DNA from: Candidatus Methanomethylicia archaeon
GTDB lineage: Archaea; Thermoproteota; Methanomethylicia; Nezhaarchaeales; B40-G2
Direction: 5' to 3'
NCBI GenBank assembly: GCA_029259155.1
Contig: JAPDJI010000014.1
Span: 30,280 to 94,279, forward strand
Length of the DNA: 64,000 bases
Positions 47,131-63,273 of this stretch are shown here, in pieces. The notes beneath the pieces are model-generated. The model ran no database searches and was not told the DNA's origin. It saw only the letters and a program-made list of their open reading frames with translations. The position numbers and the translations under genes are program-made. Numbering within the stretch: the stretch's first letter is position 1; the number at the start of each line of letters is the position of its first letter.

Positions 47131-47535
47131 CTATGAGCACGACTTTAAAACACGCTTCTCCTTTAGTTTCCTGGTTAGCGAAGCCATCCTTAACGCTGTC
47201 TCCTTGCTTATGAGATGTTCCAGTATACAGCTTTCCTTTGCTGCTAGGTCTTGGTCTATTCCTAAAACTTCGTTCAGGAAGCTGAGTATGCTTCGGTAGC
47301 GTTCCTCCAATTCCTTGACTGCTTTCATGCCTTTTTCGGTGAGGCTGACCTCGCCATAGTTCTCATGCCTTATCATACCAGCCCTCATAAGTCGCTTGAC
47401 AGCCTCGCTAGCACTCGGCACTTTAACCCCTAGAGCCAAGGCTATCTTTTTCACGGTGGCCTTACCTTCTCTGCGCTGGATGAAATATATCGCCTTTAAG
47501 TAATTCTCAAGCTTAGGAGTAAGGGTCCGCGGCAA
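47131..47535 (-). CDS. DtxR/MntR family metal-dependent repressor
   Basis: ENYLKAIY, HTH, LTEKG, ESCILEH; TTG 47535 preferred because the tracked ATG lies inside an operator. Confidence 0.88.
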   Translation of the reverse strand: MPRTLTPKLENYLKAIYFIQRREGKATVKKIALALGVKVPSASEAVKRLMRAGMIRHENYGEVSLTEKGMKAVKELEERYRSILSFLNEVLGIDQDLAAKESCILEHLISKETALRMASLTRKLKEKRVLKSCS

Positions 47536-47548
47536 GGCTGAATTTTTC

Positions 47549-47587
47549 TGTGCATATGCACATATTTTTGTTTTGTGCATATGCCCA
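47549..47587. promoter_or_regulatory. Two TGTGCATATGCACA-type palindromic operators
   Basis: TGTGCATATGCACA 47549-47562 and TGTGCATATGCCCA 47574-47587. Confidence 0.8.
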
Positions 47588-47607
47588 TAATAATGCTTAT
47601 ATAGGAG

Positions 47608-47636
47608 TTAGGCAAGCCTAAGTTAGGCTAGCCTAA
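47608..47636. promoter_or_regulatory. Tandem DtxR-type boxes TTAGG-N4-CCTAA downstream of the feo TATA box
   Basis: TTAGGCAAGCCTAA 47608-47621 and TTAGGCTAGCCTAA 47623-47636 after CTTATATA 47596-47603. Confidence 0.8.
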
Positions 47637-47651
47637 AACAGGGGGCAGGTC

Positions 47652-47879
47652 ATGAGGCTATCGGAGGCTAAGACCGGCTGCTACTACGAGGTCATTAAGG
47701 TCGAGGGCTCAGGCCCTGTAAAGAGGAGGTTTATGGACTTAGGCTTAGTTTCCAAAACCAGGCTAAAGGTGGTTCGACTTGCCCCCCTCGGCGATCCTAT
47801 TGAAGTTGAAGTGAGAGGTTATAACTTGTCTATCAGGAGAGATGAAGCTTCACTCGTCATCGTGAGGGAGGTGAGTTGA
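47652..47879 (+). CDS. feoA: Ferrous iron transport protein A
   Basis: RRFMDLGL, APLGDP, LSIRRDEA. Confidence 0.93.
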   Translation: MRLSEAKTGCYYEVIKVEGSGPVKRRFMDLGLVSKTRLKVVRLAPLGDPIEVEVRGYNLSIRRDEASLVIVREVS

Positions 47880-48178
47880 TGTATAGCTTTCCTCTAGCTT
47901 TTGCACCTGAAGGCACCTACGTCATCGTGGAGGACGTCAAGGCTGGTCATGGCATTCAGCGTAGGATGGCTGAGCTGGGCATAGTAAAGGGTTCGGTGTT
48001 GAGGGTGGTTAGAGCAGGGCCTGGACCTGTAATTATAGAGAGGGTTTCATCTATCTCTAAGGAAAGTTCGTGTCGTTGTTTCGTAGGGCCTCTCTCTAAT
48101 GGCTTTGGTCGATCTTGGAGGCTTTTGATTAGCCTTGGCATGGCCTTGAAGGTTTTAGTCAGGGTGAAGGAGGCTTGA
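47876..48178 (+). CDS. feoA: Second FeoA-family protein with an internal insertion
   Basis: RRMAELGI, GPVII, LGMALKVLV. Confidence 0.8.
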   Translation: MMYSFPLAFAPEGTYVIVEDVKAGHGIQRRMAELGIVKGSVLRVVRAGPGPVIIERVSSISKESSCRCFVGPLSNGFGRSWRLLISLGMALKVLVRVKEA

Positions 48179-50190
48179 AGGTCGCACTTGCAGGGAACCC
48201 TAACGTAGGGAAGTCCGTGATCTTCAACGAACTAACTGGTGGTAGGGCTTGGGTTGGTAATTGGCCTGGAGTAACGGTCGAGAAGAAGGTGGGCAAGACC
48301 CGCATCGACGGGTTAGACGTCGAAGTTGTAGACCTTCCAGGCATCTACAGCCTGACAGCCTATAGCGTCGATGAGCTCATAGCTAGAAACTTCATAGTTG
48401 AAGAGAAGCCTGACGTCGTAGTCAACATTGTCAATGCATGCAGCCTAGAACGCAACCTATACCTAACCTTATCCCTCATTGAGATGGGCGTAAGGGTTGT
48501 AGTAGCGTTAAATATGGTTGACATCGCCGAAAGTGAAGGCTATAGTATCGATTCTGCTAAGCTATCCGAACTCCTCGGGGTCCCCGTAATACCCACGGTG
48601 GCTATTAAGCGTCAAGGGCTGGCTGAGCTCAAAAAAACCTTGGTCGCTAAAGAGACACCGAAGAAGAGGAAGGTGGTGAGCTATGGTAGGGTTGAGGAAG
48701 CCATCGAGAAGCTTAGAGCTCTCATTGAGCAGGAATCTGACCTTAAACGACTATATGAGCCTCGCTGGGCTGCTATCAAGCTGTTTGAAGGAGACGCAAA
48801 CGTGGAGGAGAGGTTTAAACGGATTCCTTCAGGTGAGAGAATTGTCTCTTTAGCTAGAGAACTTAAAGCCGAGCTCGAGAAGGAGATGGGGGTGGACCTC
48901 GAAGGGTGGATTGTTGAACGTAGATATGAAGCGGCCTCACGGATAGCACAGGCTTGCATTGCTGCGGTTAGGCCAAGAGTTTTAACCATGACCGACGTCG
49001 TCGACATGGTGGTCACTCATAAGGTCTTAGGGATCCCCGTCGCCTTGGCAGTATTCTACATGATGTTCCAGTTTGCTTTCGCCGTCTCCGCTCCGCTCTC
49101 AGACTTAATAGATTGGTTTTTTGGGTGTGCACTTTACGAGGCGGTACTCAGTGTACCCATGCCTGAGGTACTTCAGTCCTTCCTAGCGGATGGTGTTGTG
49201 ACGGGGCTAGGCGCTATAATGGTCTTCCTTCCGCCCATAGCCTTCCTCTTCTTGGCGTTTTCAGCTTTAGAGGACGTAGGTTACATGGCACGGGCAGCCT
49301 TCGTTGTTGATAAAATCATGCATAAATTCAAGCTCACAGGGCGCTCAATTATTCCACTGATATTAGGCATAGGTTGCAACATCCCCGCCATCATGGCGGC
49401 TAGGCCCATTGAAGATGAAAACGACCGCAAGACCACTGCCTTGGTGGCGCCTTGCATTTCATGTAGCGCTCGCCTACCTGTCTACCTAGTCATAGCTGGG
49501 GCTTTATTCACTGGGTACGAGGGCTCTGCTGTGCTGAGCATGTATCTCATGGGCTTCATCTTCGCGCTGCTGCTAGGTTTACTGTTCAGGAAGTTGTTGT
49601 TTAAGGGCCCTTCAGCAGGCTTCGTCATGGAATTGCCCCCATATATGGCGCCCACCGTTAAGAACGTCGGCATTAAGACGTGGGAGCGGACGAAGAGGTT
49701 CCTCTACAAGGCTGGTGGCGTGATATTATTAGCCACGATACTAGTGTGGGTCCTCTGTGTAACAGGGCCTGGTGGCTGGCTAGGGCCAGCTGCCTTCGAA
49801 GACCCAGAGCTGATAGAGGCGAGCTGGGTAGGTGTCCTTGGATATTCTTTGAAGCCTATCTTCGCCCCGATGGGATGGGGCTGGAGGGAAACTGCGGCTT
49901 TATTCTTCGGCTTCGTGGCCAAGGAGGTAGTGGTGGGCGCCATGGCCATACTCTACGGAGTTGGTGAAGAGGGCTTGACAGGGATCTTGGCTGGATACTT
50001 CACACCAGTTTCCGGCTTCGCCTACATGGCCTTTGTCCTACTGTATGTACCGTGCCTGGTAACCGTGGCTACCCTCAAGAGTGAGCTCGGTTGGAGGTAC
50101 GCAGGCTTGGCTGTAATCTATGAATTAATGTTGGCCTATACTGTTGCTCTCGTGATTGTTGGCATAGGTGCGTTGATCGGGGTGGGCTAG
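48175..50190 (+). CDS. feoB: Ferrous iron transporter B
   Basis: GNPNVGKS, GNWPGVTVE, DLPG, NMVD, GCNIPA, AKEVVV, YVPC. Confidence 0.97.
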   Translation: MKVALAGNPNVGKSVIFNELTGGRAWVGNWPGVTVEKKVGKTRIDGLDVEVVDLPGIYSLTAYSVDELIARNFIVEEKPDVVVNIVNACSLERNLYLTLSLIEMGVRVVVALNMVDIAESEGYSIDSAKLSELLGVPVIPTVAIKRQGLAELKKTLVAKETPKKRKVVSYGRVEEAIEKLRALIEQESDLKRLYEPRWAAIKLFEGDANVEERFKRIPSGERIVSLARELKAELEKEMGVDLEGWIVERRYEAASRIAQACIAAVRPRVLTMTDVVDMVVTHKVLGIPVALAVFYMMFQFAFAVSAPLSDLIDWFFGCALYEAVLSVPMPEVLQSFLADGVVTGLGAIMVFLPPIAFLFLAFSALEDVGYMARAAFVVDKIMHKFKLTGRSIIPLILGIGCNIPAIMAARPIEDENDRKTTALVAPCISCSARLPVYLVIAGALFTGYEGSAVLSMYLMGFIFALLLGLLFRKLLFKGPSAGFVMELPPYMAPTVKNVGIKTWERTKRFLYKAGGVILLATILVWVLCVTGPGGWLGPAAFEDPELIEASWVGVLGYSLKPIFAPMGWGWRETAALFFGFVAKEVVVGAMAILYGVGEEGLTGILAGYFTPVSGFAYMAFVLLYVPCLVTVATLKSELGWRYAGLAVIYELMLAYTVALVIVGIGALIGVG

Positions 50191-50825: not shown

Positions 50826-50996
50826 ATGTCTAGCGGAGGATTTGGACGAGGAGCAGGTAGAGGTTTAGGAAGAAGGGTTGGCCCTCCAGGAGATTGTATC
50901 TGTCCACGCTGTGGCTATAGGACTGCGCATATGCCTGGCATGCCTTGTAGACAGCAGCTATGTCCTAGGTGCGGCACACCTATGATGAGGGCTTAA
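50826..50996 (+). CDS. Small Gly/Arg-rich protein with double CxxC (Zn-ribbon-like), a type found with DUF134/NifX loci
   Basis: GRGAGRGLGRR, CICPRCG..H.PG.PC...CPRCG. Confidence 0.75.
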   Translation: MSSGGFGRGAGRGLGRRVGPPGDCICPRCGYRTAHMPGMPCRQQLCPRCGTPMMRA

Positions 50997-51876
50997 TCCT
51001 TGCCTCTACCTTTGAAGCTAAGTCCATAAGGGCCTGGCGGGCAGGGGTATGTATAGACGACTTTATGAGGGGCTCGCCTCTGACGTAGGCTTTGAAAAGC
51101 TCTTCGTCGTAGGGCACCTCTACGGCAACCTCAATGCCCCTAACTCTACAGGCTTCCAGTATTTTTTCCCTAATTCCTCCAGGGATGTCTGCTCTATTGA
51201 GGACGACCCAGGCTTCTATGCCTAGCTGGCTCAATAGGTCTAGTATTAAGAAGAGATCATTAAGTCCGAGAGGGGTAGGCTCTGTAACCACGAGCGCTAA
51301 ATCGACTCCCCATAAAGCCTGGACAACGGCGTTATGTAGGCCTGGGGAAGTGTCTATGATCATTACGTCGTAGTCTCCTCTCTTAAGCTCCTCATCCACC
51401 TCTAGTTTAAGCTCCCTCGCTACAATAGGCGATCTGGCTTCCCCAGGGTTTAATTCACCTATCTTTAACCTGATAGGTCCTGCTTGAGCACTGTGGAGGA
51501 ATCCTATCGTCTTTGAGTCTTCTTTAATGGCTCCATAGCTACAGACTATCTGACAGGCCTTACAGCCTGAGCACAGTTCCTCGAAGAGTATCGGAGGAGC
51601 CCCTTCCATAAAGGCTAAGGCGTGTTCACGGCAAACCTTGGCGCAGCTTCCGCAGGGTTTACATAAGTCTCGATCTATCAAAGGCTTAAAGATCTTAACG
51701 GGCTTGCTTTCAGTAAGCTTAGCGTTGATGAGGATGGAGGTGCAAGGGCCATCCACATCACCATCAGCCAATAACACCTTAAAGCCCCAAGCGCTTAGCG
51801 CTGCCGCTAAGTTGACCGCTACAACGGTCTTACCTGTGCCTCCCTTACCACCGGTAACTGCCAGCCTAAACGTCAA
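50980..51876 (-). CDS. MinD-superfamily P-loop ATPase with inserted 2x4Fe-4S domain
   Basis: GGKGGTGKT, CKPCGSCAKVC, CSGCKACQIVC, VTEPTP. Confidence 0.9.
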   Translation of the reverse strand: MTFRLAVTGGKGGTGKTVVAVNLAAALSAWGFKVLLADGDVDGPCTSILINAKLTESKPVKIFKPLIDRDLCKPCGSCAKVCREHALAFMEGAPPILFEELCSGCKACQIVCSYGAIKEDSKTIGFLHSAQAGPIRLKIGELNPGEARSPIVARELKLEVDEELKRGDYDVMIIDTSPGLHNAVVQALWGVDLALVVTEPTPLGLNDLFLILDLLSQLGIEAWVVLNRADIPGGIREKILEACRVRGIEVAVEVPYDEELFKAYVRGEPLIKSSIHTPARQALMDLASKVEARIKPSS

Positions 51877-51888
51877 GCTTTTCTCACC

Positions 51889-52788
51889 TTAAAGCCCAAC
51901 TATCTCTTCTACGCGATCAGCTAAGCTTCTCAAGGCCACGCTTATCCTAGCTTTGGGATTAAGCTCTGGAGGTGTCTTCATGTTTGCCAGTGCCCTCACT
52001 GCTTCATAATCTACAGGCAGCTCTACTAATATAGGGACCTTTAGGTTAAAGAGCGCCCACTCCTCTAGCTTCCTAGCGTAGTCACTTGATAGCTCAGCTT
52101 TATTGAGCACAAGCCCGACAGGTACGTTAAAGTGGCGAGCTACCGCCACTAACCTCTCAAGGTTCCTCTTGGACGTAGGAGTAGGCTCGGCCACCGCTAT
52201 GACATAGCTAGCTCCTGACAGTGAAGCTATAACTGGGCAGCCTATGCCAGGTGCAGCATCAACAATGAGAAGCTCTGCTCCCTCCACTTTTGCTCTCTCT
52301 CTGGCCATCTCCTTAGCTGCAGATACCAGTTTCCCTGAGTTGTGTTCACCAGCCCTCAGCCTACCGGTAATGGTTACGAACCTGTGTCGCGTGCGTTGAG
52401 CCACCAACACGCCAGTTACGTATGGCTCTATGCGTATGGCTCCATTAGGACAAACTAAGCTACAGGCGCCGCAACCTTCACATAGAAAGTCGTATACCTT
52501 GGCTATGCCGTCCTCTACCCTGATGGCTCCATAAACACAGGCGGATTCACAGGCTCCACAGCCATTACATAGATTGTCGTTTACCCTAGCTTTCTCGGAG
52601 GCCTCTATTTTACGCTCTTCAAGTTTTTCTCCTCCTCCAAGCGCTAGTATGAGGTCGGGGGCGTCGACATCTGCGTCTACGGCGACTAGCTTTAACCTTT
52701 GGTGCAGGAGGTAGGCGAGGGAGGAAGCTACAGTGGTTTTCCCTGTACCCCCCTTACCACTAGCCACTACTAATTCCCTTAGCTCCAA
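51889..52788 (-). CDS. MinD-superfamily P-loop ATPase with inserted 2x4Fe-4S domain (paralog)
   Basis: SGKGGTGKT, CNGCGAC, CEGCGAC, PGIGCPVIAS, AEPTP. Confidence 0.9.
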   Translation of the reverse strand: MELRELVVASGKGGTGKTTVASSLAYLLHQRLKLVAVDADVDAPDLILALGGGEKLEERKIEASEKARVNDNLCNGCGACESACVYGAIRVEDGIAKVYDFLCEGCGACSLVCPNGAIRIEPYVTGVLVAQRTRHRFVTITGRLRAGEHNSGKLVSAAKEMARERAKVEGAELLIVDAAPGIGCPVIASLSGASYVIAVAEPTPTSKRNLERLVAVARHFNVPVGLVLNKAELSSDYARKLEEWALFNLKVPILVELPVDYEAVRALANMKTPPELNPKARISVALRSLADRVEEIVGL

Positions 52789-52793
52789 GACGT

Positions 52794-53630
52794 CTACCTT
52801 CCGAGCACATACCTATTGATAGCATCTCTAACCTTTATTCCTGGAGGCACGGTTATGGGCTGGATGCCGAACTGTGTCATAGCCTGATAAGCCCATGGGC
52901 CAAACCTACCTGCTATCGCTATCCTAACTCCCATGTTAGCTATTGCCTGGACAGACGCTATCCCAGCTCCGTGAGGAGCATACATAGCTTGGTTGGGCAA
53001 GGTCTCTATGCTCTTCACCTCTCCACCTTCGATTTCGATCACCGTAAAGACTGGACATCTACCGAACATCGGTGAAACCAGATCGTCAAGCCCTCCCTGA
53101 CCCTGCGACGCTACCGCTACTTTAACTCTACCTGACACTTCGAGAGGTCTCTGAGCTGGCATAGGTACTTGAGGAGGGGTTACTGGAGGGGTAGGCCATG
53201 GCCTCATAGGCCCTGGGAAGGGAGGTCTCCAAGCCGAGGTAAAACCTTGTTCTTCTAAGCCATATTCACCCGCGCAGGCTTCTTCAGCTGTCATTTCCTG
53301 AAGTTCGCCTCTCAAGATCTGGTTGATGGCCTCCTCGACCCTATCTGCAGTTACTCGGTAGACCTTGATTCCAGCTTGGTTTAGCCACTCCAGGGCTTTG
53401 ACTCCTAGTCCTTTAACTGCGACGGCGTCTACGTTTAGCGACGTTAAAGCTTCAGCAGGCCTACGGGGATAACCGTAATGCTGCCCCACACTGTCTACGA
53501 CCTCTACCTTCACTAGCTTAGCGCCTTCAACCTCCACTACCGTGATCACTTCTGCGCGTCCAAAGTGAGGACATACCTCTGCACTTAAACCGCCAGGGCT
53601 ATAACTTGGTACAGCTATCCTCATCCTCAA
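52794..53630 (-). CDS. Double NifB/NifX-domain protein with Pro-rich linker (IssA-like domains)
   Basis: CPHFGRA and SPMFGRC motifs, GAG/FGP, linker WRPPFPGPMRPWPTPP. Confidence 0.85.
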   Translation of the reverse strand: MRMRIAVPSYSPGGLSAEVCPHFGRAEVITVVEVEGAKLVKVEVVDSVGQHYGYPRRPAEALTSLNVDAVAVKGLGVKALEWLNQAGIKVYRVTADRVEEAINQILRGELQEMTAEEACAGEYGLEEQGFTSAWRPPFPGPMRPWPTPPVTPPQVPMPAQRPLEVSGRVKVAVASQGQGGLDDLVSPMFGRCPVFTVIEIEGGEVKSIETLPNQAMYAPHGAGIASVQAIANMGVRIAIAGRFGPWAYQAMTQFGIQPITVPPGIKVRDAINRYVLGR

Positions 53631-53715
53631 CCCTCCCTAAACACTTCTTTTCTCGCTGAATGATCTAATAAATAATGCGTAGGTCGCGAATGCATACATA
53701 CACACCTTTACTTAC

Positions 53716-53727
53716 GTGCATATGCAC
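53716..53727. promoter_or_regulatory. GTGCATATGCAC operator upstream of the NifX gene
   Basis: Perfect 12-bp palindrome just downstream of minus-strand CTTATAGC. Confidence 0.8.
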
Positions 53728-53755
53728 AGAAAGCTATAAGGATTACGCAAAAAAG

Positions 53756-54610
53756 CTAAGCCGAGTACGTGGAACCAGCTTTCAAAGGTATGCAGGAGTC
53801 GCCGAAGACTTTTCTAAGCTCCTCTAACCCTCTTTCGCCTGTACAGTGGCAGGGAGCTACCTTACTCACGTTCATCCTCTTAAGCTCCCTGGCGATGTCC
53901 TCAGCCTTCCTCCTAGGGACGTTGAATAGGTGTAGTCCTCCTATGAGGATAGCTATGGAGTTTGCTCCTGTAAGCCTCAAGGCTTCATCCACTAGGTTCA
54001 AGACACCGGCATGAGCACACCCAGTCATAATCATTATCCTCCCGTTAACATTTAAGATAAGGGCGCGGTCATCAGGTACCTCGTCCTTCACAATAACTCC
54101 ATCCTTGACGACGTAAAGCCCTTTAACGCTGGGCTCATCTATCCTCCTCTCTATCCTTCCAGTCAACGTTACTCCTCTAGCCAAGAGAGTAGGCTTAACT
54201 GTTAACACTAAGGTTCCTCCAGCTGCTTCTATTTGCCAAGGCTGGAAGGGGGTTCCTATGTAGGTTAAGGCAGGTTTATAGGCTAGCTTCGTACTGAAGG
54301 CTTCAGGATCTACAACTATAGGTATCCTTCTCCCAATAGTCTTGATCGCGTCTAGTAGTCCACCTGTGTGGTCGTAGTGGCCATGGCTCAGCGCGATTAC
54401 ATCAACTTTTCCCAGCTCTGTCTTCATTGCTAGGGCATTGTTTAATAAAGTGGTGTCAGGTCCGGTATCGAACAGTATCTTAACCTCTCCCTTCCTATAA
54501 AAGCAGTTAATTAACGCGGCGAAGCCGTGAACTGCGTGTAAACCGCTTTGTGCGTTATCATCAACTAACACTACTACCTCTACTTTAACAAGGTCTCCGT
54601 TCTCCGTCAA
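53756..54610 (-). CDS. MBL-fold hydrolase (COG1237 / MJ0301-like)
   Basis: LFDTG, SHGHYDHTGG, DD.AL, GCAHAG, GGLH, PCHCTG; TTG 54610. Confidence 0.85.
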   Translation of the reverse strand: MTENGDLVKVEVVVLVDDNAQSGLHAVHGFAALINCFYRKGEVKILFDTGPDTTLLNNALAMKTELGKVDVIALSHGHYDHTGGLLDAIKTIGRRIPIVVDPEAFSTKLAYKPALTYIGTPFQPWQIEAAGGTLVLTVKPTLLARGVTLTGRIERRIDEPSVKGLYVVKDGVIVKDEVPDDRALILNVNGRIMIMTGCAHAGVLNLVDEALRLTGANSIAILIGGLHLFNVPRRKAEDIARELKRMNVSKVAPCHCTGERGLEELRKVFGDSCIPLKAGSTYSA

Positions 54611-54620
54611 GCCTCTTCGC

Positions 54621-54950
54621 CTAAACAGCCTGTGGTGGAACTTCATGTGTAACTATTAAAGGTCTTTTCTCAGCCAACATCGTGGCCAGCTTCTTACGGG
54701 CATTCTCTAGGCAGCGCCATAAAGTCCCTCTAGATATATTCATCCTCTTGGCAGCCTCCTCCTGCGTTAACCCTTCATAGAACACAAGCCTATAGGCTTC
54801 GAACTCGTCAGGAGTCATGTAAATGGGTGGTGGAGGCCTTGAGGTGTCTTGCGGGAAAGGTATGAACTGGAAGATCTGAGGCTCAAAGCCTAGGGACCTA
54901 GGCTTCACAGGCCTTCCACGAAATCGGCCTCGCGGCCCCCACCGCCACAT
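54621..54950 (-). CDS. DUF134 family HTH protein
   Basis: GRP.KPR, DEFEAYRLV..EGLTQEEAAKRMNISRGT..R.L..AR.K. Confidence 0.9.
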   Translation of the reverse strand: MWRWGPRGRFRGRPVKPRSLGFEPQIFQFIPFPQDTSRPPPPIYMTPDEFEAYRLVFYEGLTQEEAAKRMNISRGTLWRCLENARKKLATMLAEKRPLIVTHEVPPQAV

Positions 54951-55017: not shown

Positions 55018-55326
55018 TTATGGGCCTCCTAGGCTTTTCTTGAGCTCGTTTATCCTAGCTTCTACGCTCTTGAGCTCCTCCTCTAACCATTTCTTATACT
55101 CTTCGAGAGCTTTAAGCTCCTCTTCAGGGCTGGGCGGAGCCCATGGAGGAGGCGTTGGATAGTAGTAGGGCGGCGGAGGCGGATAATACCACCATTGAGG
55201 GCCGTAGCCGGGCGGCGGTGATGGTGGTGGAGGAGAGCCCTGATCTGTTGGCGTTTGTTGACCAGTAGGTGAACTCTGCATCCACCAAGGACCCCATCTT
55301 CTACCTCTTTGCCAACCGTAGCTCAT
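55018..55326 (-). CDS. Pro/Trp/Tyr-rich small protein with C-terminal coiled coil (DUF5320-like)
   Basis: WYYPPPPPYYYP, EEELKALEEYKKWLEEELKSVEARINEL. Confidence 0.75.
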   Translation of the reverse strand: MSYGWQRGRRWGPWWMQSSPTGQQTPTDQGSPPPPSPPPGYGPQWWYYPPPPPYYYPTPPPWAPPSPEEELKALEEYKKWLEEELKSVEARINELKKSLGGP

Positions 55327-55338
55327 TCGCTATATCCC

Positions 55339-55563
55339 TCACCAATACCATACCGGTGGCCATAGATAAAGGTATGGCCACATCCACATCGTTAAGAGCC
55401 ATGGAGCGAACCCTGCGAAGGGCCACCAAGCCATGAAGGGGAACATGGGCGGCATGAAAGGCCATGAGTAGCCCCAAGGGACGCTGTAGTAATCTGTGCT
55501 ATACCTAGTAGGCTGATAGCTTTGAGAGGTGGTGCTCCAAGGATCATAACCATAGTAGGCGAT
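55339..55563 (-). CDS. Tyr/Trp/Pro-rich 74-aa protein, probable ATC start; not in ORF track
   Basis: SD GGTGA 6 nt before ATC; (M)AYYGYDPWSTTSQSYQPTRYSTDYYSVPWGYSWPFMPPMFPFMAWWPFAGFAPWLLTMWMWPYLYLWPPVWYW; fills the gap between neighbours exactly. Confidence 0.6.
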   Translation of the reverse strand: MAYYGYDPWSTTSQSYQPTRYSTDYYSVPWGYSWPFMPPMFPFMAWWPFAGFAPWLLTMWMWPYLYLWPPVWYW

Positions 55564-55569
55564 GATACC

Positions 55570-55749
55570 TCACCACCAGTAAGGCGCTAGGAACCAAGAC
55601 CTCCACATCCATGGGCCAAAGAGCCACCAGCAAGCTCCTCTACCAAATACCCAGCCGGGCCTCATCCATGGAGGCAGCCAGCTGAAGGGTCCTCTGCCTG
55701 GCCAGGGGCCCATCCAGCCCCATCCTCTACCCCAACCCCACCAAGCCAC
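55570..55749 (-). CDS. Trp/Gly/Pro-rich 59-aa protein; not in ORF track
   Basis: SD GGAGGTGA then GTG; MAWWGWGRGWGWMGPWPGRGPFSWLPPWMRPGWVFGRGACWWLFGPWMWRSWFLAPYWW. Confidence 0.78.
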   Translation of the reverse strand: MAWWGWGRGWGWMGPWPGRGPFSWLPPWMRPGWVFGRGACWWLFGPWMWRSWFLAPYWW

Positions 55750-55764
55750 TTAGACATCACCTCC

Positions 55765-55788
55765 TTTTCTGTGCATATGCACAGAAAA
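55765..55788. promoter_or_regulatory. Perfect 24-bp palindromic operator TTTTCTGTGCATATGCACAGAAAA
   Basis: Lies between minus-strand TTTATA (55795-55800) and the SD of the first operon gene. Confidence 0.9.
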
Positions 55789-55889
55789 CTCGGATATAAA
55801 CTTTATGCAAAAAAGATGGTTAACCTTTCTCCTCGAACAGGTCGAGGAGGCCATAGAAACTAATAATGAGTTAGAACACTTTTTCCTTA

Positions 55890-56730: not shown

Positions 56731-57573
56731 CTAGGAAGGTCGCTGCTTCTCTAACATGTTCTCTAGCTTCTCTACTATGGACATGAACGCTTTCGCCACA
56801 GGGGTGTCTGTATGTTCGACTATGAAGGGCATTCCCTTATCAGAAGCTTCACAAACTCTAGGGTCTAGCGGAACCTTACCTAAGAATGGAACCCCCATTT
56901 CCCTCGAGATTCTCTCTCCACCTCCTGAGCTGAAGATATCGACGTAGTGGCCGCAGTTAGGACATACAAACCCGCTCATGTTCTCGACTATGCCTAGCAC
57001 CCTTGTCTGTAAGTTACGGGTAAAGGTGACTGCTTTTTTCACCACGAGTTGGGATAGGTCTGAGGGTATTGTGACTATTACTGCGCCATCCACACCGGGT
57101 ATTGCTTGGAACACTGTGAGTGCTTCATCACCTGTGCCTGGAGGAAGGTCGATAAGCAGGTATTCAAGATTGCCCCAAACAATCTCTGCGAGGAACTGTT
57201 TAATGGCCATAGATTTCATGGGGCCCCTCCAAATAACAGGTGTCTCGTCGCTTGGGAGGAGGAAGTCCATGGAAACTACCTTCACCCCAAGCGGGCCCAT
57301 TACTGGGAAGATCCCTGGAGGACCGCCCGTAAGACCTTGTCCTCTTACGCCTAATATCTTTGGTATGCTGGGACCTGTGATGTCAGCATCTAGTATGCCC
57401 ACTAAATTAGGCCTACCCTTCCAAGCGAGCGCCACCGCTAAATTAGCAGCTACAGTACTCTTACCTACACCGCCCTTACCGCTCAGTATAACCACTTTAT
57501 GTTTTACTTTAGACATCCAGGCCCTTATCTTCTCATCCAACTCTTGAAGCCTTGACTTTGCCTCTCCACTCAT
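56731..57573 (-). CDS. apbC: Mrp/ApbC/Nbp35 Fe-S cluster carrier ATPase
   Basis: GKGGVGKS, WRGPM, DLPPGTGD, ENMS..CPNC. Confidence 0.93.
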   Translation of the reverse strand: MSGEAKSRLQELDEKIRAWMSKVKHKVVILSGKGGVGKSTVAANLAVALAWKGRPNLVGILDADITGPSIPKILGVRGQGLTGGPPGIFPVMGPLGVKVVSMDFLLPSDETPVIWRGPMKSMAIKQFLAEIVWGNLEYLLIDLPPGTGDEALTVFQAIPGVDGAVIVTIPSDLSQLVVKKAVTFTRNLQTRVLGIVENMSGFVCPNCGHYVDIFSSGGGERISREMGVPFLGKVPLDPRVCEASDKGMPFIVEHTDTPVAKAFMSIVEKLENMLEKQRPS

Positions 57574-57591: not shown

Positions 57592-57611
57592 TTTTGTGCA
57601 AAGGCACAAAA
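57592..57611. promoter_or_regulatory. Variant operator TTTTGTGC-AAAG-GCACAAAA upstream of apbC
   Basis: Inverted repeat 7 nt downstream of minus-strand TTTATA. Confidence 0.7.
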
Positions 57612-57638: not shown

Positions 57639-57818
57639 CTACGTCTTCTCCAACCTTAAGATCTCCTTCTCCACGTCTACCTCTGTGATCCTACAGTTTT
57701 CCAGAACCTTCTCTTCGCCCAGCACTGTCCTGAGGAGAACTCTACCAGTTTTCTCCACTGCGTAGATTACATCGCTAAATACTTGTTCCCCGCTCAAGAA
57801 AACCTTAAATTCACACAC
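57639..57818 (-). CDS. cooT: CooT-family nickel-binding protein (59 aa); not in ORF track
   Basis: MCEFKVFLSGEQVFSDV...LRTVLGE...ITEVD; Cys2; SD GAGGGG. Confidence 0.82.
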   Translation of the reverse strand: MCEFKVFLSGEQVFSDVIYAVEKTGRVLLRTVLGEEKVLENCRITEVDVEKEILRLEKT

Positions 57819-57976: not shown

Positions 57977-59152
57977 GTGCCTACGCGTAAGAAGGTGGTT
58001 CACGGCTGGTTCTATGGATATAAAGATAGGGGGAGACGGGAATGTTCTGCTGAGCGTATCTTATTGAACCCTTACAACGGCTGCTCCGTGAACTGTCCTA
58101 TGTGTTATGCTAGAGGTTTCAAAGGATACTTCGACCTCTGGAACCAGAAGGGCATAGTCACGGTGTTTCAAGGCTTCGACGTGAAGTGTGCAGAAGAGCT
58201 CGACCAGCTCTACGTAGCCTCCTGCGGCTACCTAAGCCCAATAACGGAGCCTTTCCAATACCCCCTCGAAAATAAGTATGGTCTGAGTGAACGTACGGCT
58301 TACGTGTTTCTTGACCGAGGCCTCCCCGTGGAGTTTATCACTAAGATGGGAAGTAACGTGCCTAGTAGACTGCTCACCCGCATGGCTGAGAACCCTCACA
58401 GCTTTGCTCAATTTACCATTCTCTCAGCGGACGATGAGGTTAGGAAGGTCTTCTCCCCAGGAGGATCCACAGTAGAGGAGCAGTTTAAGGCTGTGCGTAG
58501 AGCAGCTGACCGTGGCCTCTACGTGGTAGTTAGGATGGACCCTATGTTCCCCGGCATAACGGATGACCGTAGGTCCATAGAGGAAGTAGTATCTAGAGCA
58601 GTGAAAGAAGGAGCTAGGCACATGATTTTCAGTATTTGCGACTTGGCAGACGCTTGGTTTAAGAGGACATTGAACGAAGTCAAGGAACACTTCCCCTCTG
58701 CTTTAAAGCTATGGAGAGAGGTGTACAGAGAGAGACGCGGAGACCGGTTAGAGGCCAACGTGAAGTACAGGAGGAAGGTGTTTGAAACAGCAAAGGAAGT
58801 ATGTACGTCTCACGGGGTCACCATGGCCCTCTGCATGGAGTTCGAGGAGACGCGAAGGGGGAAGAAAATTTGGTATCGGGGCCTCAATGAAGACTACATG
58901 ACCTCTTCCTGCTGCGAAGGAATGGAAACCCCAATTTATTATAGGAAATCTCTTAGCGAGCATTTCAAGCCTCTTAATGGATGTAACGGCAACTGTTTAG
59001 CTTGCGCTAAGAGGATTCAAACTCCCGTCTGCGGTTTATCTCTGCTAGCTAAAGCAGAGGCCCTTAAATTCAAAGATTATAAATCACTCAAATTACCTGA
59101 ATCTTCAAGCTTAGAGAGGTGGACACCTCGAAAATATGAAAATACAGCGTGA
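57977..59152 (+). CDS. Radical SAM protein, spore-photoproduct-lyase-like (true start may be about 57902-57908)
   Basis: LNPYNGCSVNCPMCYA, TEPFQ, ITK, RMDP; C-terminal Cys cluster. Confidence 0.8.
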   Translation: MPTRKKVVHGWFYGYKDRGRRECSAERILLNPYNGCSVNCPMCYARGFKGYFDLWNQKGIVTVFQGFDVKCAEELDQLYVASCGYLSPITEPFQYPLENKYGLSERTAYVFLDRGLPVEFITKMGSNVPSRLLTRMAENPHSFAQFTILSADDEVRKVFSPGGSTVEEQFKAVRRAADRGLYVVVRMDPMFPGITDDRRSIEEVVSRAVKEGARHMIFSICDLADAWFKRTLNEVKEHFPSALKLWREVYRERRGDRLEANVKYRRKVFETAKEVCTSHGVTMALCMEFEETRRGKKIWYRGLNEDYMTSSCCEGMETPIYYRKSLSEHFKPLNGCNGNCLACAKRIQTPVCGLSLLAKAEALKFKDYKSLKLPESSSLERWTPRKYENTA

Positions 59153-61804: not shown

Positions 61805-61815
61805 GAAGCCACCTC

Positions 61816-63117: not shown

Positions 63118-63253
63118 CCTTACCACCTTGCTTAGTTGGTGAAGGCAACTCTAGGACTAAGAGATCCGCTTCCAGCTCCACGTTCTCCAGCTCAACCTCC
63201 TTAGCTTTATCAAGTAAAAGTAAAAGCTCTTCTAGTTTAAGTTCCTCAGCCAT
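63110..63253 (-). CDS. 47-aa protein resembling the CdhD N-terminal motif; not in ORF track
   Basis: ATG after GGGAGAG; MAEELKLEELLLLLDKAKEVELENVELEADLLVLELPSPTKQGGKGG; GTGGCTAA overlap with cdhD start. Confidence 0.75.
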   Translation of the reverse strand: MAEELKLEELLLLLDKAKEVELENVELEADLLVLELPSPTKQGGKGG

Positions 63254-63273
63254 TCTCTCTCCCACAGCGCTTT

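What the first reader, a model, noticed from the sequence alone, without database searches (positions are those of the whole stretch)
55018..55749. Three tandem Trp/Tyr/Pro/Gly-rich microproteins head a DUF134-NifX-FeS ATPase operon: possible split iron-sulfur storage or condensate system
Seen: the first three genes behind the 24-bp operator encode a 59-aa protein with 16 Trp (WGRGWG, a single Cys, ends YWW), a 74-aa Tyr/Trp/Pro protein (ends WYW) and a 102-aa poly-Pro/Tyr protein with a coiled coil. Two of them are absent from the ORF track. Downstream are DUF134, an MBL hydrolase, a double NifX protein and two MinD-FeS ATPases. Known: Pyrococcus furiosus IssA stores Fe and S as thioferrate nanoparticles using a NifX-type domain, a Pro-rich linker and a Gly/Arg/aromatic tail. 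The NifX protein here has the domains and linker but no such tail. Inference: the tails are supplied in trans as separate self-assembling peptides, forming a multi-component Fe-S storage or scaffold particle fed by Feo.
Basis: partly seen in the sequence, partly recalled or inferred. Interest (0 to 1): 0.82.

Follow-up and report, generated by a model that had tools for sequence, protein, structure and literature searches.

The report
Trp-rich archaeal microproteins beside NifX genes
Two of the three tiny tryptophan/proline-rich genes are real and conserved across many archaeal phyla, always next to iron-sulfur handling genes and behind a shared DNA switch, so they probably help hold or pass on iron-sulfur material, although this has not been shown.

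Summary
The sequence features are there, with one caveat.

**The three ORFs**
- **ORF1** (55570-55749, minus strand, 59 aa, 16 Trp, one Cys) is a real gene. It founds an unannotated archaeal family with an almost invariant core, PWPGRGPFSYLPPWxRPGW(L/V)FGRGACWW. There are 73 database homologues, all named "hypothetical". A species-genome scan found 296 loci across many phyla.
- **ORF3** (55018-55326) is a DUF5320 member through its coiled coil.
- **ORF2** (55339-55569) is doubtful. It has no ATG/GTG/TTG start, no significant homologue, and mostly non-synonymous strain differences.

**Neighbours.** In 71 of 80 foreign loci the ORF1 family lies beside DUF134, DUF5320-like, NifX, MinD-ferredoxin ATPase or Mrp genes.

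**Fusions.** Other archaea fuse the DUF5320 coiled coil and Gly/Arg/aromatic stretches directly to NifX domains. The ORF1 core is also found fused to the DUF5320 coiled coil.

**Operator.** The 24-bp palindrome is one of five such boxes in the 1.55-Mb genome, all in this window. They lie at ORF1, NifX, Mrp and twice at dtxR/feoA. A TGTGC-N4-GCACA box precedes the family's gene in 63 of 80 loci. It tracks DUF134, not DtxR, which has its own TTAGG-N4-CCTAA boxes.

**Verdict.** This is an IssA/ORP-like Fe-S handling cluster with new microprotein accessories. Strict "tails in trans replace a missing tail" is not supported. Function remains inferred.

The parts
55765..55788 (.). 24-bp perfect palindrome TTTTCTGTGCATATGCACAGAAAA. 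It is an operator of the TGTGC-N4-GCACA type, lying downstream of the TATA box of the ORF1 promoter.
   Evidence: 0 mismatches. The same box type lies within 250 nt upstream of the family's gene in 63 of 80 loci; the reversed control gives 0 of 80.
55794..55800 (-). TTTATAT, a TATA-box-like element about 48 nt upstream of the ORF1 start.
   Evidence: Read. The same TTTATAT abuts the box in relatives. Its promoter function is inferred.
55570..55749 (-). ORF1: a 59-aa Trp-rich cationic microprotein and founding member of an unannotated 'W-core' family. Core: PWPGRGPFSWLPPWMRPGWVFGRGACWW, with a single Cys at residue 40.
   Evidence: No Pfam or NCBIfam hit. Zero differences in a ~99% identical strain from 4 other studies.
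55339..55563 (-). ORF2: a doubtful 74-aa Tyr/Trp/Pro-rich frame. It needs an ATC start, is in frame with ORF1 behind its TGA, and ends WYW.
   Evidence: frame, no canonical start. (1 synonymous and 3 non-synonymous differences; ATC and TGA unchanged). (no significant homologue). (positional analogues in 14 of 78 loci).
55018..55326 (-). ORF3: a 102-aa DUF5320-type protein with an Arg/Trp head, a Pro/Gln/Tyr-rich middle and a C-terminal coiled coil.
   Evidence: Pfam PF17253 scores 33.8 bits against a cut-off of 27, matching residues 53-95. 5 of 5 strain differences are synonymous. Homologues occur in 34 of 80 loci.
54621..54950 (-). DUF134 (UPF0251) protein with an Arg/Gly/Pro N-terminal arm plus a sigma-70 region-4-type HTH. 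It is the candidate regulator that binds the palindromes.
   Evidence: Pfam 72.8 bits. It lies within 1 kb of the family's gene in 43 of 80 loci. Boxes lie in DUF134's divergent intergenic region also in genomes without the W-core gene. Binding is inferred.
53756..54646 (-). MBL-fold metallo-hydrolase.
   Evidence: Pfam Lactamase_B. Present in 18 of 80 loci.
53712..53731 (.). Second operator copy (TTACGTGCATATGCACAGAA on the + strand, 2 mismatches), between the MBL stop and the NifX start.
52794..53630 (-). Protein with two NifX-type (Nitro_FeMo-Co) domains joined by a Pro-rich linker. It has no Gly/Arg repeats and no C-terminal tail.
   Evidence: Pfam, 2 stretches, 129 bits. Alignment with orthologues whose linkers carry GRG/GMG repeats.
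51889..52788 (-). MinD/CbiA-type P-loop ATPase with two 4Fe-4S ferredoxin motifs (Orp3/Orp4-like).
   Evidence: Present in 33 of 80 loci.
50980..51876 (-). Second MinD/CbiA-type ATPase with two 4Fe-4S motifs.
   Evidence: Present in 29 of 80 loci.
57592..57611 (.). Operator-like palindrome TTTTGTGCCTTTGCACAAAA (minus-strand reading; 4 mismatches to the ORF1 box), between a TTTATAT box and the Mrp start.
56731..57573 (-). Mrp/NBP35 (NUBPL-type) Fe-S carrier ATPase.
   Evidence: Pfam PF10609, 320 bits. Directly follows the W-core gene in L016, L019, L044 and L066.
47546..47590 (.). Two further operator copies (47546-47565 with 2 mismatches; 47571-47590 with 3 mismatches) in the dtxR/feoA divergent region.
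47608..47636 (.). Two tandem TTAGG-N4-CCTAA palindromes (TTAGGCAAGCCTAA, TTAGGCTAGCCTAA) between a TATA-like box and feoA. They are candidate DtxR boxes, distinct from the TGTGC boxes.
   Evidence: 14 genome hits at 2 or fewer mismatches, 0 for the reversed control. Likeness to the IdeR/DtxR consensus is recalled, not tested.
47131..47580 (-). DtxR-family iron-dependent repressor. The true start is probably the TTG at 47538, because the longer frame runs through the palindromes.
   Evidence: Pfam Fe_dep_repress and Fe_dep_repr_C..
47652..50190 (+). feoA (47652-47879), feoA (47876-48178) and feoB (48175-50190).
   Evidence: Pfam.

Best explanation
ORF1 and ORF3 are real small proteins. They head a conserved archaeal gene set: a DUF134 regulator, a Trp-rich 'W-core' microprotein, a DUF5320 coiled-coil protein, NifX-domain protein(s), two MinD-ferredoxin ATPases, and Mrp/NBP35. 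In this genome the set is one local regulon marked by TGTGC-N4-GCACA palindromes.

Shown:
- The genes, their families and their cross-phylum synteny.
- The conserved operator.
- That the low-complexity and coiled-coil modules occur fused to NifX domains elsewhere.

Inferred:
- The acid-free, Arg/Trp/Gly/Pro-rich ORF1, with its invariant single Cys, and the Arg/Trp-headed, Pro-rich, coiled-coil ORF3 co-assemble with the NifX-domain protein.
- The cationic-aromatic segments wrap anionic Fe-S species bound by the NifX domains, as proposed for the IssA tail.
- The Cys gives a thiolate ligand, and the coiled coil multimerises the assembly.
- The MinD-ferredoxin and Mrp ATPases load or unload clusters.
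- DUF134 binds the palindromes through its Arg-Gly-Arg-Pro arm plus HTH and represses the set. In this organism it also acts on feoAAB/dtxR, beside DtxR's own boxes.

The microproteins add to NifX tails and linkers rather than replace them. ORF2 is probably not a conserved component.
For: **Genes are real**
- ORF1 homologues reach E 1e-12 to 1e-20 at 65-88% identity in 13 of 60 relatives from 6 other families.
- 73 of 75 candidate proteins passed E <= 0.01, all named 'hypothetical'.
- 20 columns are invariant in 21 sequences.
- Of the 73 homologues, 69 have exactly one Cys, 58 have no Asp/Glu, and 69 end in an aromatic residue.
- In a ~99% identical strain seen in 4 other studies, ORF1 has 0 changes, ORF3 has 5 of 5 synonymous, and DUF134 has 1 of 1 synonymous.

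**Synteny** (80 best of 296 loci)
- Within 1 kb of the W-core gene: NifX 46, DUF134 43, DUF5320-like 32.
- 71 of 80 loci hold at least one of DUF134, NifX, MinD-Fer, Mrp or DUF5320-like.

**Fusions**
- NifX + Gly/Arg/Met stretch + DUF5320 coiled coil (L025, L026, L085).
- DUF5320-like coiled coil + GRGW stretch + NifX (L052, L088, L097).
- W-core + DUF5320 coiled coil (P0012 and P0030, Pfam; several; G012).
- A Cys-rich module is shared by Thermococci NifX proteins and two W-core proteins.
- In Thermococci the W-core gene overlaps the end of the NifX gene.

**Regulon**
- All 5 genome hits at 4 or fewer mismatches lie in this window, at the ORF1, NifX, Mrp and dtxR/feoA promoters. The reversed control gives 0 at 3 or fewer mismatches.
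- 63 of 80 loci have the box upstream, against 0 of 80 for the control.
- G031's three perfect sites precede two W-core genes (one followed by Mrp) and NifX-MinD-MinD.
- DUF134 is present in 13 of 13 relatives with the W-core gene.
- Variant boxes TGTGA-N4-TCACA flank DUF134 in genomes without the W-core gene.

**Literature**
- IssA tail chemistry (PMC5524996, passages).
- In M. voltae, FeoB, DtxR and two IssA homologues rise together on FeS2 (PMC8516115, passages).
Against: - No experiment and no expression data exist here.
- The AlphaFold model of ORF1 is low-confidence: mean pLDDT 53, with only a helix at residues 31-53.
- No W-core/NifX fusion was found among 77 representatives.
- The W-core gene often stands with only a DUF5320-like gene, far from NifX. 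This is so in L002, L004, L006-L008 and L012 and in L059, L062 and L082.
- It was found in only 15 of 81 Thermococcaceae genomes and in 0 of 3 genomes of the window's own family at a significant E-value. It is therefore dispensable for NifX/IssA-type proteins.
- Homology of the W-core to the DUF5320 head is not established (hhalign probability 2.9% over 15 columns).
- The regulator assignment is by association only. DtxR is also nearby: 11 of 80 loci, and adjacent to and divergent from the W-core gene in L023.
- A first search found no TGTGC box in five DUF134-positive genomes. Only variant boxes were then seen in three of them.
Confidence: 0.5

Rival explanations
1. Membrane-interface anchor. 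The Trp-rich peptides sit at the membrane-water interface. They tether or localise the MinD-type/Mrp ATPases and NifX proteins there, rather than binding Fe-S material themselves.
For: - Trp content is extreme: 27% in ORF1 and a median of 18% in 73 homologues.
- Aromatic C-termini occur in 69 of 73 homologues.
- The only element in the AlphaFold model is a helix at residues 31-53 (low confidence).
- In one family the gene pair lies next to a multi-pass membrane-like ORF (L002, L004, L006-L008, L012).
- Orp3/Orp4 are reported to carry MinD-like amphipathic membrane-targeting helices (PMC6345978, passage).
- Trp preference for membrane interfaces is established knowledge (recalled).
Against: - There is no hydrophobic stretch of transmembrane length. 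GRAVY is -0.25, with Arg, Gly and Pro throughout.
- The invariant 30-residue core with one Cys suggests a specific partner or ligand rather than generic lipid contact.
- The fusions are to soluble modules: a coiled coil or a Cys-rich module.
- The membrane-protein neighbour is seen in one lineage only.
Confidence: 0.15
2. Regulatory partner. The W-core microprotein is a small sensor or co-regulator of DUF134, for example a cluster- or thiol-dependent anti-repressor. It would be the first gene behind the operator because it feeds back on it.
For: - DUF134 lies within 1 kb in 43 of 80 loci. It is often divergent, with two boxes in the shared intergenic region.
- The W-core gene is the first gene behind the box in most loci.
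- There is a single invariant Cys.
- DUF134 is present in 13 of 13 relatives that have the W-core gene.
- DUF134's N-terminus is itself Arg/Gly/Trp/Pro-rich.
Against: - 27 of 47 relatives without a strong W-core hit still have DUF134, with boxes. DUF134 therefore works without it.
- The W-core is fused to DUF5320 coiled coils and to a Cys module shared with NifX proteins, not to DNA-binding domains.
- Several genomes carry two copies, one of them in an operon with Mrp.
Confidence: 0.12
3. This NifX protein lacks an IssA tail, and the three peptides supply it in trans. Together they build a thioferrate-type Fe-S storage particle fed by Feo.
For: - The window's double-NifX protein has a Pro-rich linker without the GRG/GMG repeats that orthologues in Hadesarchaea and Hodarchaeaceae MAGs carry.
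- ORF1's chemistry matches the published description of the IssA tail.
- feoAAB shares the operator.
Against: - Tailed or repeat-bearing NifX proteins coexist with the W-core and DUF5320-like genes in G014, G031 and G023. There is therefore no complementary distribution.
- ORF2 is not conserved.
- The W-core was found in only 15 of 81 Thermococcaceae genomes.
- Sharing an operator with an uptake system gives no reason to prefer storage over cluster trafficking.
- No data on the mineral form exist.
Confidence: 0.12
4. Secreted or modified peptide. ORF1 would be a ribosomally made peptide precursor processed by the nearby radical SAM or MBL enzymes.
For: - The ORF is small and is followed by an MBL-fold hydrolase in the operon.
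- A radical SAM gene lies at 57977-59152.
- Radical SAM relatives occur in 4 of 80 loci.
Against: - The core is nearly invariant across phyla and the variable part is the tail, with no leader/core pattern.
- No consistent maturase, protease or exporter is present: MBL in 18 of 80 loci and radical SAM in 4 of 80.
- The constant partners are cytosolic Fe-S proteins.
Confidence: 0.03

Closest known systems
IssA of Pyrococcus furiosus (iron-sulfur storage protein; Vaccaro et al. 2017, PMC5524996, passages read)
   Same: - The operon holds a NifX-type (IPR003731 / Nitro_FeMo-Co) domain protein.
- ORF1 and the head of ORF3 share the tail's described character: Pro-rich, cationic, aromatic and Gly-rich, with a single Cys and a high pI (ORF1 pI 11.8, against 10.7 reported for the tail).
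- Other archaea in this gene set carry such stretches on the NifX protein itself.
   Different: - Here the low-complexity parts are separate genes, with a strongly conserved 30-residue core that the IssA paper does not describe.
- The window's NifX protein has two domains and no tail.
- The family was found in only 15 of 81 Thermococcaceae genomes.
- No thioferrate or particle evidence exists.
- The IssA sequence itself was not compared, and the paper's supplementary tail alignment could not be seen.
ORP (orange protein) complex genes of Desulfovibrio vulgaris: Orp3, Orp4, Orp5, Orp8, Orp9 (PMC6345978 and PMC8359166, passages read)
   Same: - Two paralogous MinD-type ATPases, each with two 4Fe-4S motifs (like Orp3/Orp4).
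- A NifX-type domain protein (like Orp8).
- An Mrp/NBP35 protein (the N-domain of Orp9). NCBIfam's MrpORP model hits the NifX and ATPase proteins below its cut-off.
- A dedicated local regulator.
   Different: - The setting is archaeal. The regulator is a DUF134 candidate with palindromic boxes, not sigma-54/OrpR/IHF.
- Mrp is not fused to a NifX domain.
- Trp-rich and DUF5320 microproteins are part of the set.
- Whether Orp5 or Orp7 correspond to DUF5320 or DUF134 was not tested. The 2011 paper that describes them is not held.
Pfam DUF5320 (PF17253), family of unknown function
   Same: - ORF3 passes the curated cut-off through the C-terminal coiled coil.
- The ORF1 core is found fused to the same coiled coil.
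- ORF1 shares a short LP(P/G)W(M)R..PGW motif with the head of canonical members.
   Different: - ORF1 itself gets no Pfam hit, and the profile comparison is not significant (probability 2.9%).
- ORF3 matches only profile positions 62-99.
- No function is known for the family. Only two incidental mentions were found in print.
Pfam DUF134 / UPF0251 predicted DNA-binding proteins
   Same: The operon's fourth gene is a clear member (72.8 bits) with a sigma-70 region-4-type HTH.
   Different: A cognate operator (TGTG[C/A]-N4-[G/T]CACA) and a target set are proposed here from comparative data only. No description of either was found in the searches made.

Membership tests
DUF5320 (PF17253), for ORF3 | Pfam model score at or above the gathering cut-off | tested here: met
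   33.8 bits against 27, E 8e-8. Only residues 53-95 match, on profile positions 62-99 of 99. Whole-genome scan: 35.7 bits with neighbours.
DUF5320 (PF17253), for ORF3 | N-terminal and middle part of the profile (positions 1-61) | tested here: inconclusive
   Not aligned in ORF3. The relative in L010 aligns from profile position 34.
DUF5320 (PF17253), for ORF1 | Pfam model score at or above the gathering cut-off | tested here: not met
   No Pfam or NCBIfam family at E <= 1. hhalign against 8 canonical heads gives probability 2.9%. The Atlas feature hit to a DUF5320 cluster scores 0.78, a lead only.
IssA (iron-sulfur storage protein) | N-terminal IPR003731 / NifX-type globular domain | tested here: not met
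   None in ORF1, ORF2 or ORF3. The domain is present twice in the separate protein 52794-53630.
IssA (iron-sulfur storage protein) | Cationic, Gly/aromatic-rich C-terminal tail on the same polypeptide as the domain (the criterion in the legend of Fig. 6 of PMC5524996) | tested here: not met
   The window's NifX protein ends with its second domain, and its linker is Pro-rich without Gly/Arg repeats.
IssA (iron-sulfur storage protein) | Binds Fe and S as thioferrate and forms nanoparticles | not testable with these tools
   Needs purification, XAS/EPR and EM.
ORP-type gene set | Two MinD-type ATPases with two 4Fe-4S motifs each, plus a NifX-type protein and an Mrp/NBP35 protein | tested here: met
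   Pfam CbiA/ParA plus Fer4 (twice) in 51889-52788 and 50980-51876. Nitro_FeMo-Co in 52794-53630. PF10609 at 320 bits in 56731-57573.
ORP-type gene set | Mrp fused to a NifX-type domain (MrpORP), with sigma-54/OrpR control | tested here: not met
   Mrp here is 280 aa without a NifX domain. All NCBIfam MrpORP hits are far below the cut-off of 450. The promoters are archaeal, with TATA boxes and palindromes.
DUF134 (PF02001) | Pfam model score at or above the gathering cut-off | tested here: met
   72.8 bits against 27. Sigma70_r4_2 scores 35.8 bits.
DtxR regulon | A DtxR-type TTAGG-N4-CCTAA box at the promoter of the microprotein operon | tested here: not met
   In this window, boxes at 2 or fewer mismatches lie only at 47608, 47623 (feoA) and 50419, none near 55018-55800. 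None of the foreign loci carrying DtxR (11 of 80) or FeoB (11 of 80) has a TGTGC box at a feo or dtxR promoter.

The most novel reading that the evidence does not exclude
The W-core microproteins and DUF5320 proteins are the protein matrix of a widespread archaeal Fe-S depot or hand-over station. Acid-free Arg/Trp peptides cage anionic Fe-S chains or clusters by cation-pi and thiolate contacts, using the single invariant Cys. DUF5320 coiled coils bundle them. NifX domains nucleate the assembly, and MinD-ferredoxin and Mrp ATPases charge and discharge it. The whole is switched by a DUF134 AT-hook/HTH repressor through a box conserved across many archaeal lineages, from Thermoproteota to Hadesarchaea, Thermococci and Asgard-labelled MAGs. 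This would generalise IssA from one Thermococcales protein into a modular, multi-gene system.
Probability: 0.25. Interest if true: 0.8.

Novelty: new variant of a known kind. Interest (0 to 1): 0.62.

Why it matters
How strict anaerobes store and traffic iron and sulfur is largely open. IssA is the only characterised Fe-S storage protein, and the ORP-type genes have no settled function.

This locus yields three testable things:
- A compact, unannotated microprotein family. Only 77 cluster representatives were found among 1.84 billion proteins. It has an almost invariant Trp/Pro/Gly/Arg core and one Cys.
- Domain-fusion evidence that DUF5320-type coiled coils and Gly/Arg/aromatic stretches belong functionally to NifX-domain proteins.
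- A candidate operator and target set for the uncharacterised DUF134 regulators, conserved across archaeal phyla.

The locus also shows how gene callers miss such proteins, which have 59 aa, a GTG start and an odd composition.

Tried and rejected
- **Complex prediction.** NifX protein (alignment A2) with ORF1 (alignment A1) scored 0.00 in two runs. No verdict; controls were not run.
- **Monomer fold.** The AlphaFold2 model of ORF1 with 21 sequences has mean pLDDT 53. It is too poor for a fold search, so none was run.
- **Expression.** No RNA holder was listed among 13 sequencing runs, so there is no expression information either way.
- **ORF2 homology.**
  - BLASTP against the two most similar positional analogues gave E 0.34 and 3.4.
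  - There was no hit better than E 0.13 in 30 relatives.
  - The closest-order relative, G004, has DUF134, the box, the W-core gene and a short DUF5320-like ORF, but no ORF2-like frame.
- **Assembly error at the ORF2 start or the ORF1 stop: rejected.** One contig from each of X2 and X3 spans the site, with all its differences listed. None falls at 55561-55572. The X4 and X5 contigs that carry the same differences also cover it.
- **The ATG at 55455 as the ORF2 start: weakened.** It reads ACG in the related strain.
- **CODH/ACS maturation.** The window has cdh genes and cooT next door. Cdh relatives lie in only 2 of 80 foreign loci, so this is not a conserved link.
- **DtxR as binder of the TGTGC boxes: considered less likely.**
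  - Distinct TTAGG-N4-CCTAA boxes sit at feoA.
  - No feo or dtxR promoter in the foreign loci carries a TGTGC box.
  - DtxR-family genes are in 58 of 60 relatives, so their presence says nothing.
- **First box search.** Five DUF134-positive genomes without the W-core gene showed nothing near DUF134. Reading three of those loci showed variant TGTGA-N4-TCACA boxes.
- **Earlier notes of this scan.** Nothing for this place.
- **Papers.**
  - DUF5320 appears in 2 papers, both incidental by title and abstract.
  - The DUF134/UPF0251/COG1342 search returned 37 papers, 20 listed. None was about this family by title, and most were word-start matches to other DUF numbers.
  - 'tryptophan-rich' with NifX and archaea gave nothing relevant.
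  - Fievet et al. 2011 on the ORP complex is not held.
- **Supplements.** Supplementary Fig. 7 of the IssA paper (tail alignment) and the M. voltae proteome tables may bear on the tail comparison and on co-expression.
Full report
**1. What is at the coordinates**

All genes of the finding lie on the minus strand.

- **ORF1** (55570-55749) starts with GTG, 7 nt behind AGGAGGTGA. It encodes 59 residues with 16 Trp, 11 Gly, 8 Pro, 5 Arg, one Cys and no acidic residue. Its pI is 11.8 and it ends YWW. Trp is 27% of the protein, against 1.2% in a proxy of this genome's long ORFs.
- **The ORF2 frame.** Directly behind ORF1's TGA, and in the same frame, 76 codons stay open (55339-55569). They contain no ATG, GTG or TTG before the ATG at 55455.
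- **ORF3** (55018-55326, ATG start) has 102 residues with 24 Pro, 8 Trp and 8 Tyr, and a C-terminal coiled coil.
- **The operator** is a perfect 24-bp palindrome at 55765-55788, between a TTTATAT box and the ribosome-binding site.

- DUF134 (72.8 bits).
- An MBL-fold hydrolase.
- A protein with two NifX-type domains.
- Two MinD/CbiA ATPases, each with two 4Fe-4S motifs.
- An Mrp/NBP35 ATPase upstream.
- feoA-feoA-feoB and a DtxR-family gene downstream.

Both missing ORF calls have an ordinary cause. ORF1 is one residue short of a 60-aa threshold and uses GTG. ORF2 has no canonical start.

**2. ORF1 founds a real, unannotated family**

ORF1 has no Pfam or NCBIfam match at E <= 1. Evidence that it is nevertheless a conserved gene:

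- Relatives at E 1e-12 to 1e-20 and 65-88% identity occur in 13 of 60 related genomes. These come from six other families of the same class. None of three genomes of the window's own family had a significant hit.
- 73 of 75 candidate proteins in the large protein collection passed E <= 0.01. All that carry a name are "hypothetical protein".
- The names point to Thermoproteota of many orders, Methanomethylicota, Korarchaeia (Methanodesulfokora), Bathyarchaeia, Hadesarchaea, Thermococcus aggregans and Pyrofollis.
- A scan of one genome per species found 296 loci. The best 80 add Brockarchaeota, Hodarchaeaceae, Methanocellales and Wolframiiraptor MAGs.
- A profile search of 1.84 billion representatives returned only 77 proteins at E <= 0.001, 53-165 aa long apart from one of 1225 aa. 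In the 15 longer ones I read, the core lies at the N-terminus, allowing for mis-called upstream starts.

In an alignment of 21 members, 20 columns are invariant. The core is W-P-G-x-G-P-F-x-x-L-P-P-W-x-R-P-G-W-x-x-G-R-G-x-C-x-x-L.

Among the 73 homologues:

| Feature | Count |
|---|---|
| Exactly one Cys | 69 of 73 |
| No Asp/Glu | 58 of 73 |
| Aromatic last residue | 69 of 73 |
| Ends in WW | 28 of 73 |
| Median length | 85 aa |
| Median Trp content | 18% |

This is a specific motif, not mere low complexity.

**3. ORF3 and ORF2**

ORF3 passes Pfam DUF5320 (33.8 bits, cut-off 27), but only through its coiled coil, on profile positions 62-99. Proteins of the same build occur in 34 of 80 loci. 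That build is an Arg/Trp/Tyr head, a Pro/Gln-rich middle, and a PEEEL..LE.YK..LEEELK..E.RI.ELK coiled coil.

ORF2 is different.

- *Against:*
  - No significant relative in 30 related genomes.
  - No significant BLASTP match to the two most similar positional analogues (E 0.34 and 3.4).
- *For:*
  - A small aromatic-rich ORF follows the W-core gene in 14 of 78 loci. Two are of the ORF2 type and twelve are of a different "MAYPYY..." type.
  - The window's frame reads (I)AYYGY at the ATC.
  - GGTGGTGA lies 6 nt upstream of that ATC.

I put ORF2's reality at about 0.4.

**4. Strain variation**

Contigs from four other studies hold a ~99% identical strain. X2's 29-kb contig spans 54900-55814 with 10 substitutions and one intergenic insertion.

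| Gene | Differences |
|---|---|
| ORF1 | none |
| ORF3 | 5, all synonymous third positions |
| DUF134 | 1, synonymous |
| ORF2 | 1 synonymous; 3 non-synonymous (V73I, M39T, P37L) |

- M39T removes the ATG at 55455.
- The TGA and the ATC-ATC are unchanged, so they are not errors of this assembly.
- The coverage peak over 55614-55749 comes from other organisms' copies of the core that still align at 85% identity or more.

**5. Conserved neighbours**

I searched ORFs of the 80 loci with the window's own proteins (phmmer, E < 1e-4).

| Family | Loci (of 80) | Within 1 kb of the W-core gene |
|---|---|---|
| NifX | 53 | 46 |
| DUF134 | 48 | 43 |
| DUF5320-like | 34 | 32 |
| MinD-ferredoxin ATPase a / b | 33 / 29 | 9 / 5 |
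| MBL | 18 | 11 |
| Mrp | 14 | 5 |
| DtxR | 11 | 2 |
| FeoB | 11 | 0 |

- 71 of 80 loci hold at least one of DUF134, NifX, MinD-Fer, Mrp or DUF5320-like.
- The window's order is found almost gene for gene in a Hodarchaeaceae MAG (L080) and in Hadesarchaea MAGs (L022, L028, L065).
- In some lineages the W-core/DUF5320-like pair stands alone.
- A second W-core copy can precede Mrp (L016, L044, L066).
- Cdh genes, which neighbour the cluster in this window, recur in only 2 of 80 loci.

**6. Fusions link the modules to NifX**

- *NifX + Gly/Arg/Met stretch + Pro-rich stretch + DUF5320 coiled coil:* L025, L026, L085.
- *DUF5320-like coiled coil + GRGW-rich stretch + NifX:* L052, L088, L097.
- *Orthologues of the window's double-NifX protein* in Hadesarchaea and Hodarchaeaceae MAGs carry GRG/GMG repeats in the inter-domain linker. 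The window's protein has only a Pro-rich linker.
- *W-core + DUF5320 coiled coil:* P0012 and P0030 with Pfam hits, several representatives, and G012.
- *A Cys-rich module* (C-x-H/F-x-N-G-x-C ... A-C-P-x-F) ends the Thermococci NifX proteins and also two W-core proteins.
- *In Thermococci* the W-core gene overlaps the end of the NifX gene.

No direct W-core/NifX fusion was seen. A profile comparison of the W-core with canonical DUF5320 heads found only a 15-column motif, LPPWMR..PGWVFGRG against LPGWMRFGYSPGWV-GR, at 2.9% probability. Common descent is therefore not shown.

**7. The operator and its likely reader**

*In the window's 1.55-Mb genome:*
- All five matches to the 20-nt core at 4 or fewer mismatches lie within about 10 kb of this window. 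They are in front of ORF1, NifX and Mrp, and twice in the dtxR/feoA region.
- The reversed control has none at 3 or fewer mismatches and four at 4. An 18-nt version at 2 or fewer mismatches did not differ from its control in number, only in placement.

*In other genomes:*
- TGTGC-N4-GCACA at 1 or fewer mismatches lies within 250 nt upstream of the core in 63 of 80 loci, against 0 of 80 for the control. Elsewhere there are 29 sites in 733 kb.
- In Thermococci the box precedes the NifX gene that heads the pair.
- It abuts a TTTATAT box.
- In G031 the three perfect sites precede two W-core genes (one followed by Mrp) and NifX-MinD-MinD.

- DUF134 is in 13 of 13 relatives with the W-core gene and in 27 of 47 without it. 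DtxR-family genes are in 58 of 60.
- Genomes with DUF134 but no W-core gene carry variant boxes, TGTGA-N4-TCACA. In two of the three loci read these come in pairs, in DUF134's divergent intergenic region next to DUF5320-like and NifX genes. The exact pattern had missed them.
- The feoA promoter of the window carries two different palindromes, TTAGGCAAGCCTAA and TTAGGCTAGCCTAA. A third lies upstream of the genome's second DtxR paralogue. They resemble the IdeR/DtxR consensus as I recall it.
- None of the foreign loci with DtxR or Feo has a TGTGC box at those promoters.
- DUF134's N-terminus holds an Arg-Gly-Arg-Pro stretch followed by Lys-Pro-Arg, which is AT-hook-like by recall. The boxes have A/T-rich centres and flanks.

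DUF134 is therefore the likely reader. This rests on association only.

**8. Mechanism**

*Shown:* the genes, families, synteny, fusions and operator.

*Inferred:* the acid-free Arg/Trp/Gly/Pro peptides and the Pro-rich coiled-coil protein assemble with NifX-domain proteins and hold anionic Fe-S species, as the IssA authors propose for the IssA tail. The invariant Cys acts as a ligand and the coiled coil as a multimeriser. The MinD-ferredoxin and Mrp ATPases act as loaders or unloaders.

*Physiological fit:* FeoB, DtxR and two IssA homologues rise together in M. voltae grown on FeS2 (PMC8516115, passages).

*Limits of the evidence:*
- The model of ORF1 is low-confidence.
- The peptides add to NifX tails and do not replace them. 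Tailed NifX proteins coexist with them in G014, G031 and G023.
- The family was found in only 15 of 81 Thermococcaceae genomes.

In-frame UGA read-through joining ORF1 and ORF2 is possible on paper and untested.

**9. Comparison and novelty**

The cluster is closest to two known things:
- IssA, by its NifX domain and tail chemistry.
- The Desulfovibrio ORP gene set, by its two MinD-ferredoxin ATPases, NifX-type protein and Mrp.

It is a member of neither by their defining features (see the membership rows). ORF3 and the DUF134 gene belong to known families of unknown function.

The W-core family, the module fusions and the cross-phylum operator were not found described in the searches made. 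Those searches cover open-access papers and preprints only, and supplements were closed. I rate the finding a new variant of a known kind, with interest 0.62.

Noticed in passing
window 47596-47654: The feoA promoter appears to be doubly controlled. Two TGTGC-type boxes lie just upstream of a CTTATATA box. Two tandem TTAGG-N4-CCTAA palindromes lie between that box and the feoA ATG at 47652. A similar TTAGGTTAACCTAA lies about 140 nt upstream of the genome's second DtxR-family gene, on contig C15.
   Followed up: partly
window 47652-48178: There are two feoA genes in tandem (75 aa and 100 aa, overlapping by 4 nt) ahead of feoB. The first is below the 80-aa listing threshold that I used at first.
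   Followed up: yes
window 47538-47580: The longest dtxR frame starts at an ATG inside the second palindrome and reads through the first. The Pfam domain begins at residue 20, so the TTG at 47538 is the more likely start.
   Followed up: partly
window 55570-55572 and 55561-55566: ORF1's TGA stop is followed in frame by GGT ATC ATC and a 76-codon open frame. UGA read-through would give a fusion of about 136 aa. Both features are unchanged in a ~99% identical strain from four other studies.
   Followed up: partly
L038, L046, L049-L051, L074, L075, L079, L083, L091, L095, L099 (about 200 nt directly behind the W-core gene): There is a second family of microproteins of about 60-75 aa (one copy cut short at 49 aa by the end of its locus). 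They start MAYPYY... and continue with a conserved ...YY.E/M..W.K..E segment. They directly follow the W-core gene in 12 loci, mostly of Thermofilum/Thermoproteales-, Desulfurococcales- and Thermoprotei-labelled MAGs plus two Bathyarchaeota MAGs. They matched none of the window-derived queries, and Pfam was not run on them.
   Followed up: no
L035, L036, L060, L061, L078 (Thermococci) and proteins P0095, P0106: A small Cys-rich module (C-x-H/F-x-N-G-x-C ... A-C-P-x-F, three Cys) ends the Thermococci NifX proteins. It also ends two W-core proteins. It may be a metal or cluster site shared between the two protein types.
   Followed up: no
window 54909-54950 and DUF134 genes of L015, L017, L018, L026: The N-termini of DUF134 proteins are themselves Arg/Gly/Trp/Pro-rich (for example W-R-W-R-R-G-G-P-G-R-P-x-K-P-R). 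They resemble the heads of ORF1 and ORF3 and contain an AT-hook-like R-G-R-P.
   Followed up: no
window 57639-57818 and 60386-63999: A CooT-family gene (Pfam 33.4 bits) lies just upstream of Mrp, and CdhD-type CODH/ACS subunit genes follow. This neighbourhood recurs in only 2 of 80 foreign loci.
   Followed up: yes
window 55614-55749 (depth table): In four vent or sediment metagenomes the summed contig depth over the W-core rises about 10- to 50-fold above the flanks. The extra depth comes from short contigs of other organisms that still align at 85% identity or more. The core is therefore conserved even at the DNA level and is common in these samples.
   Followed up: no
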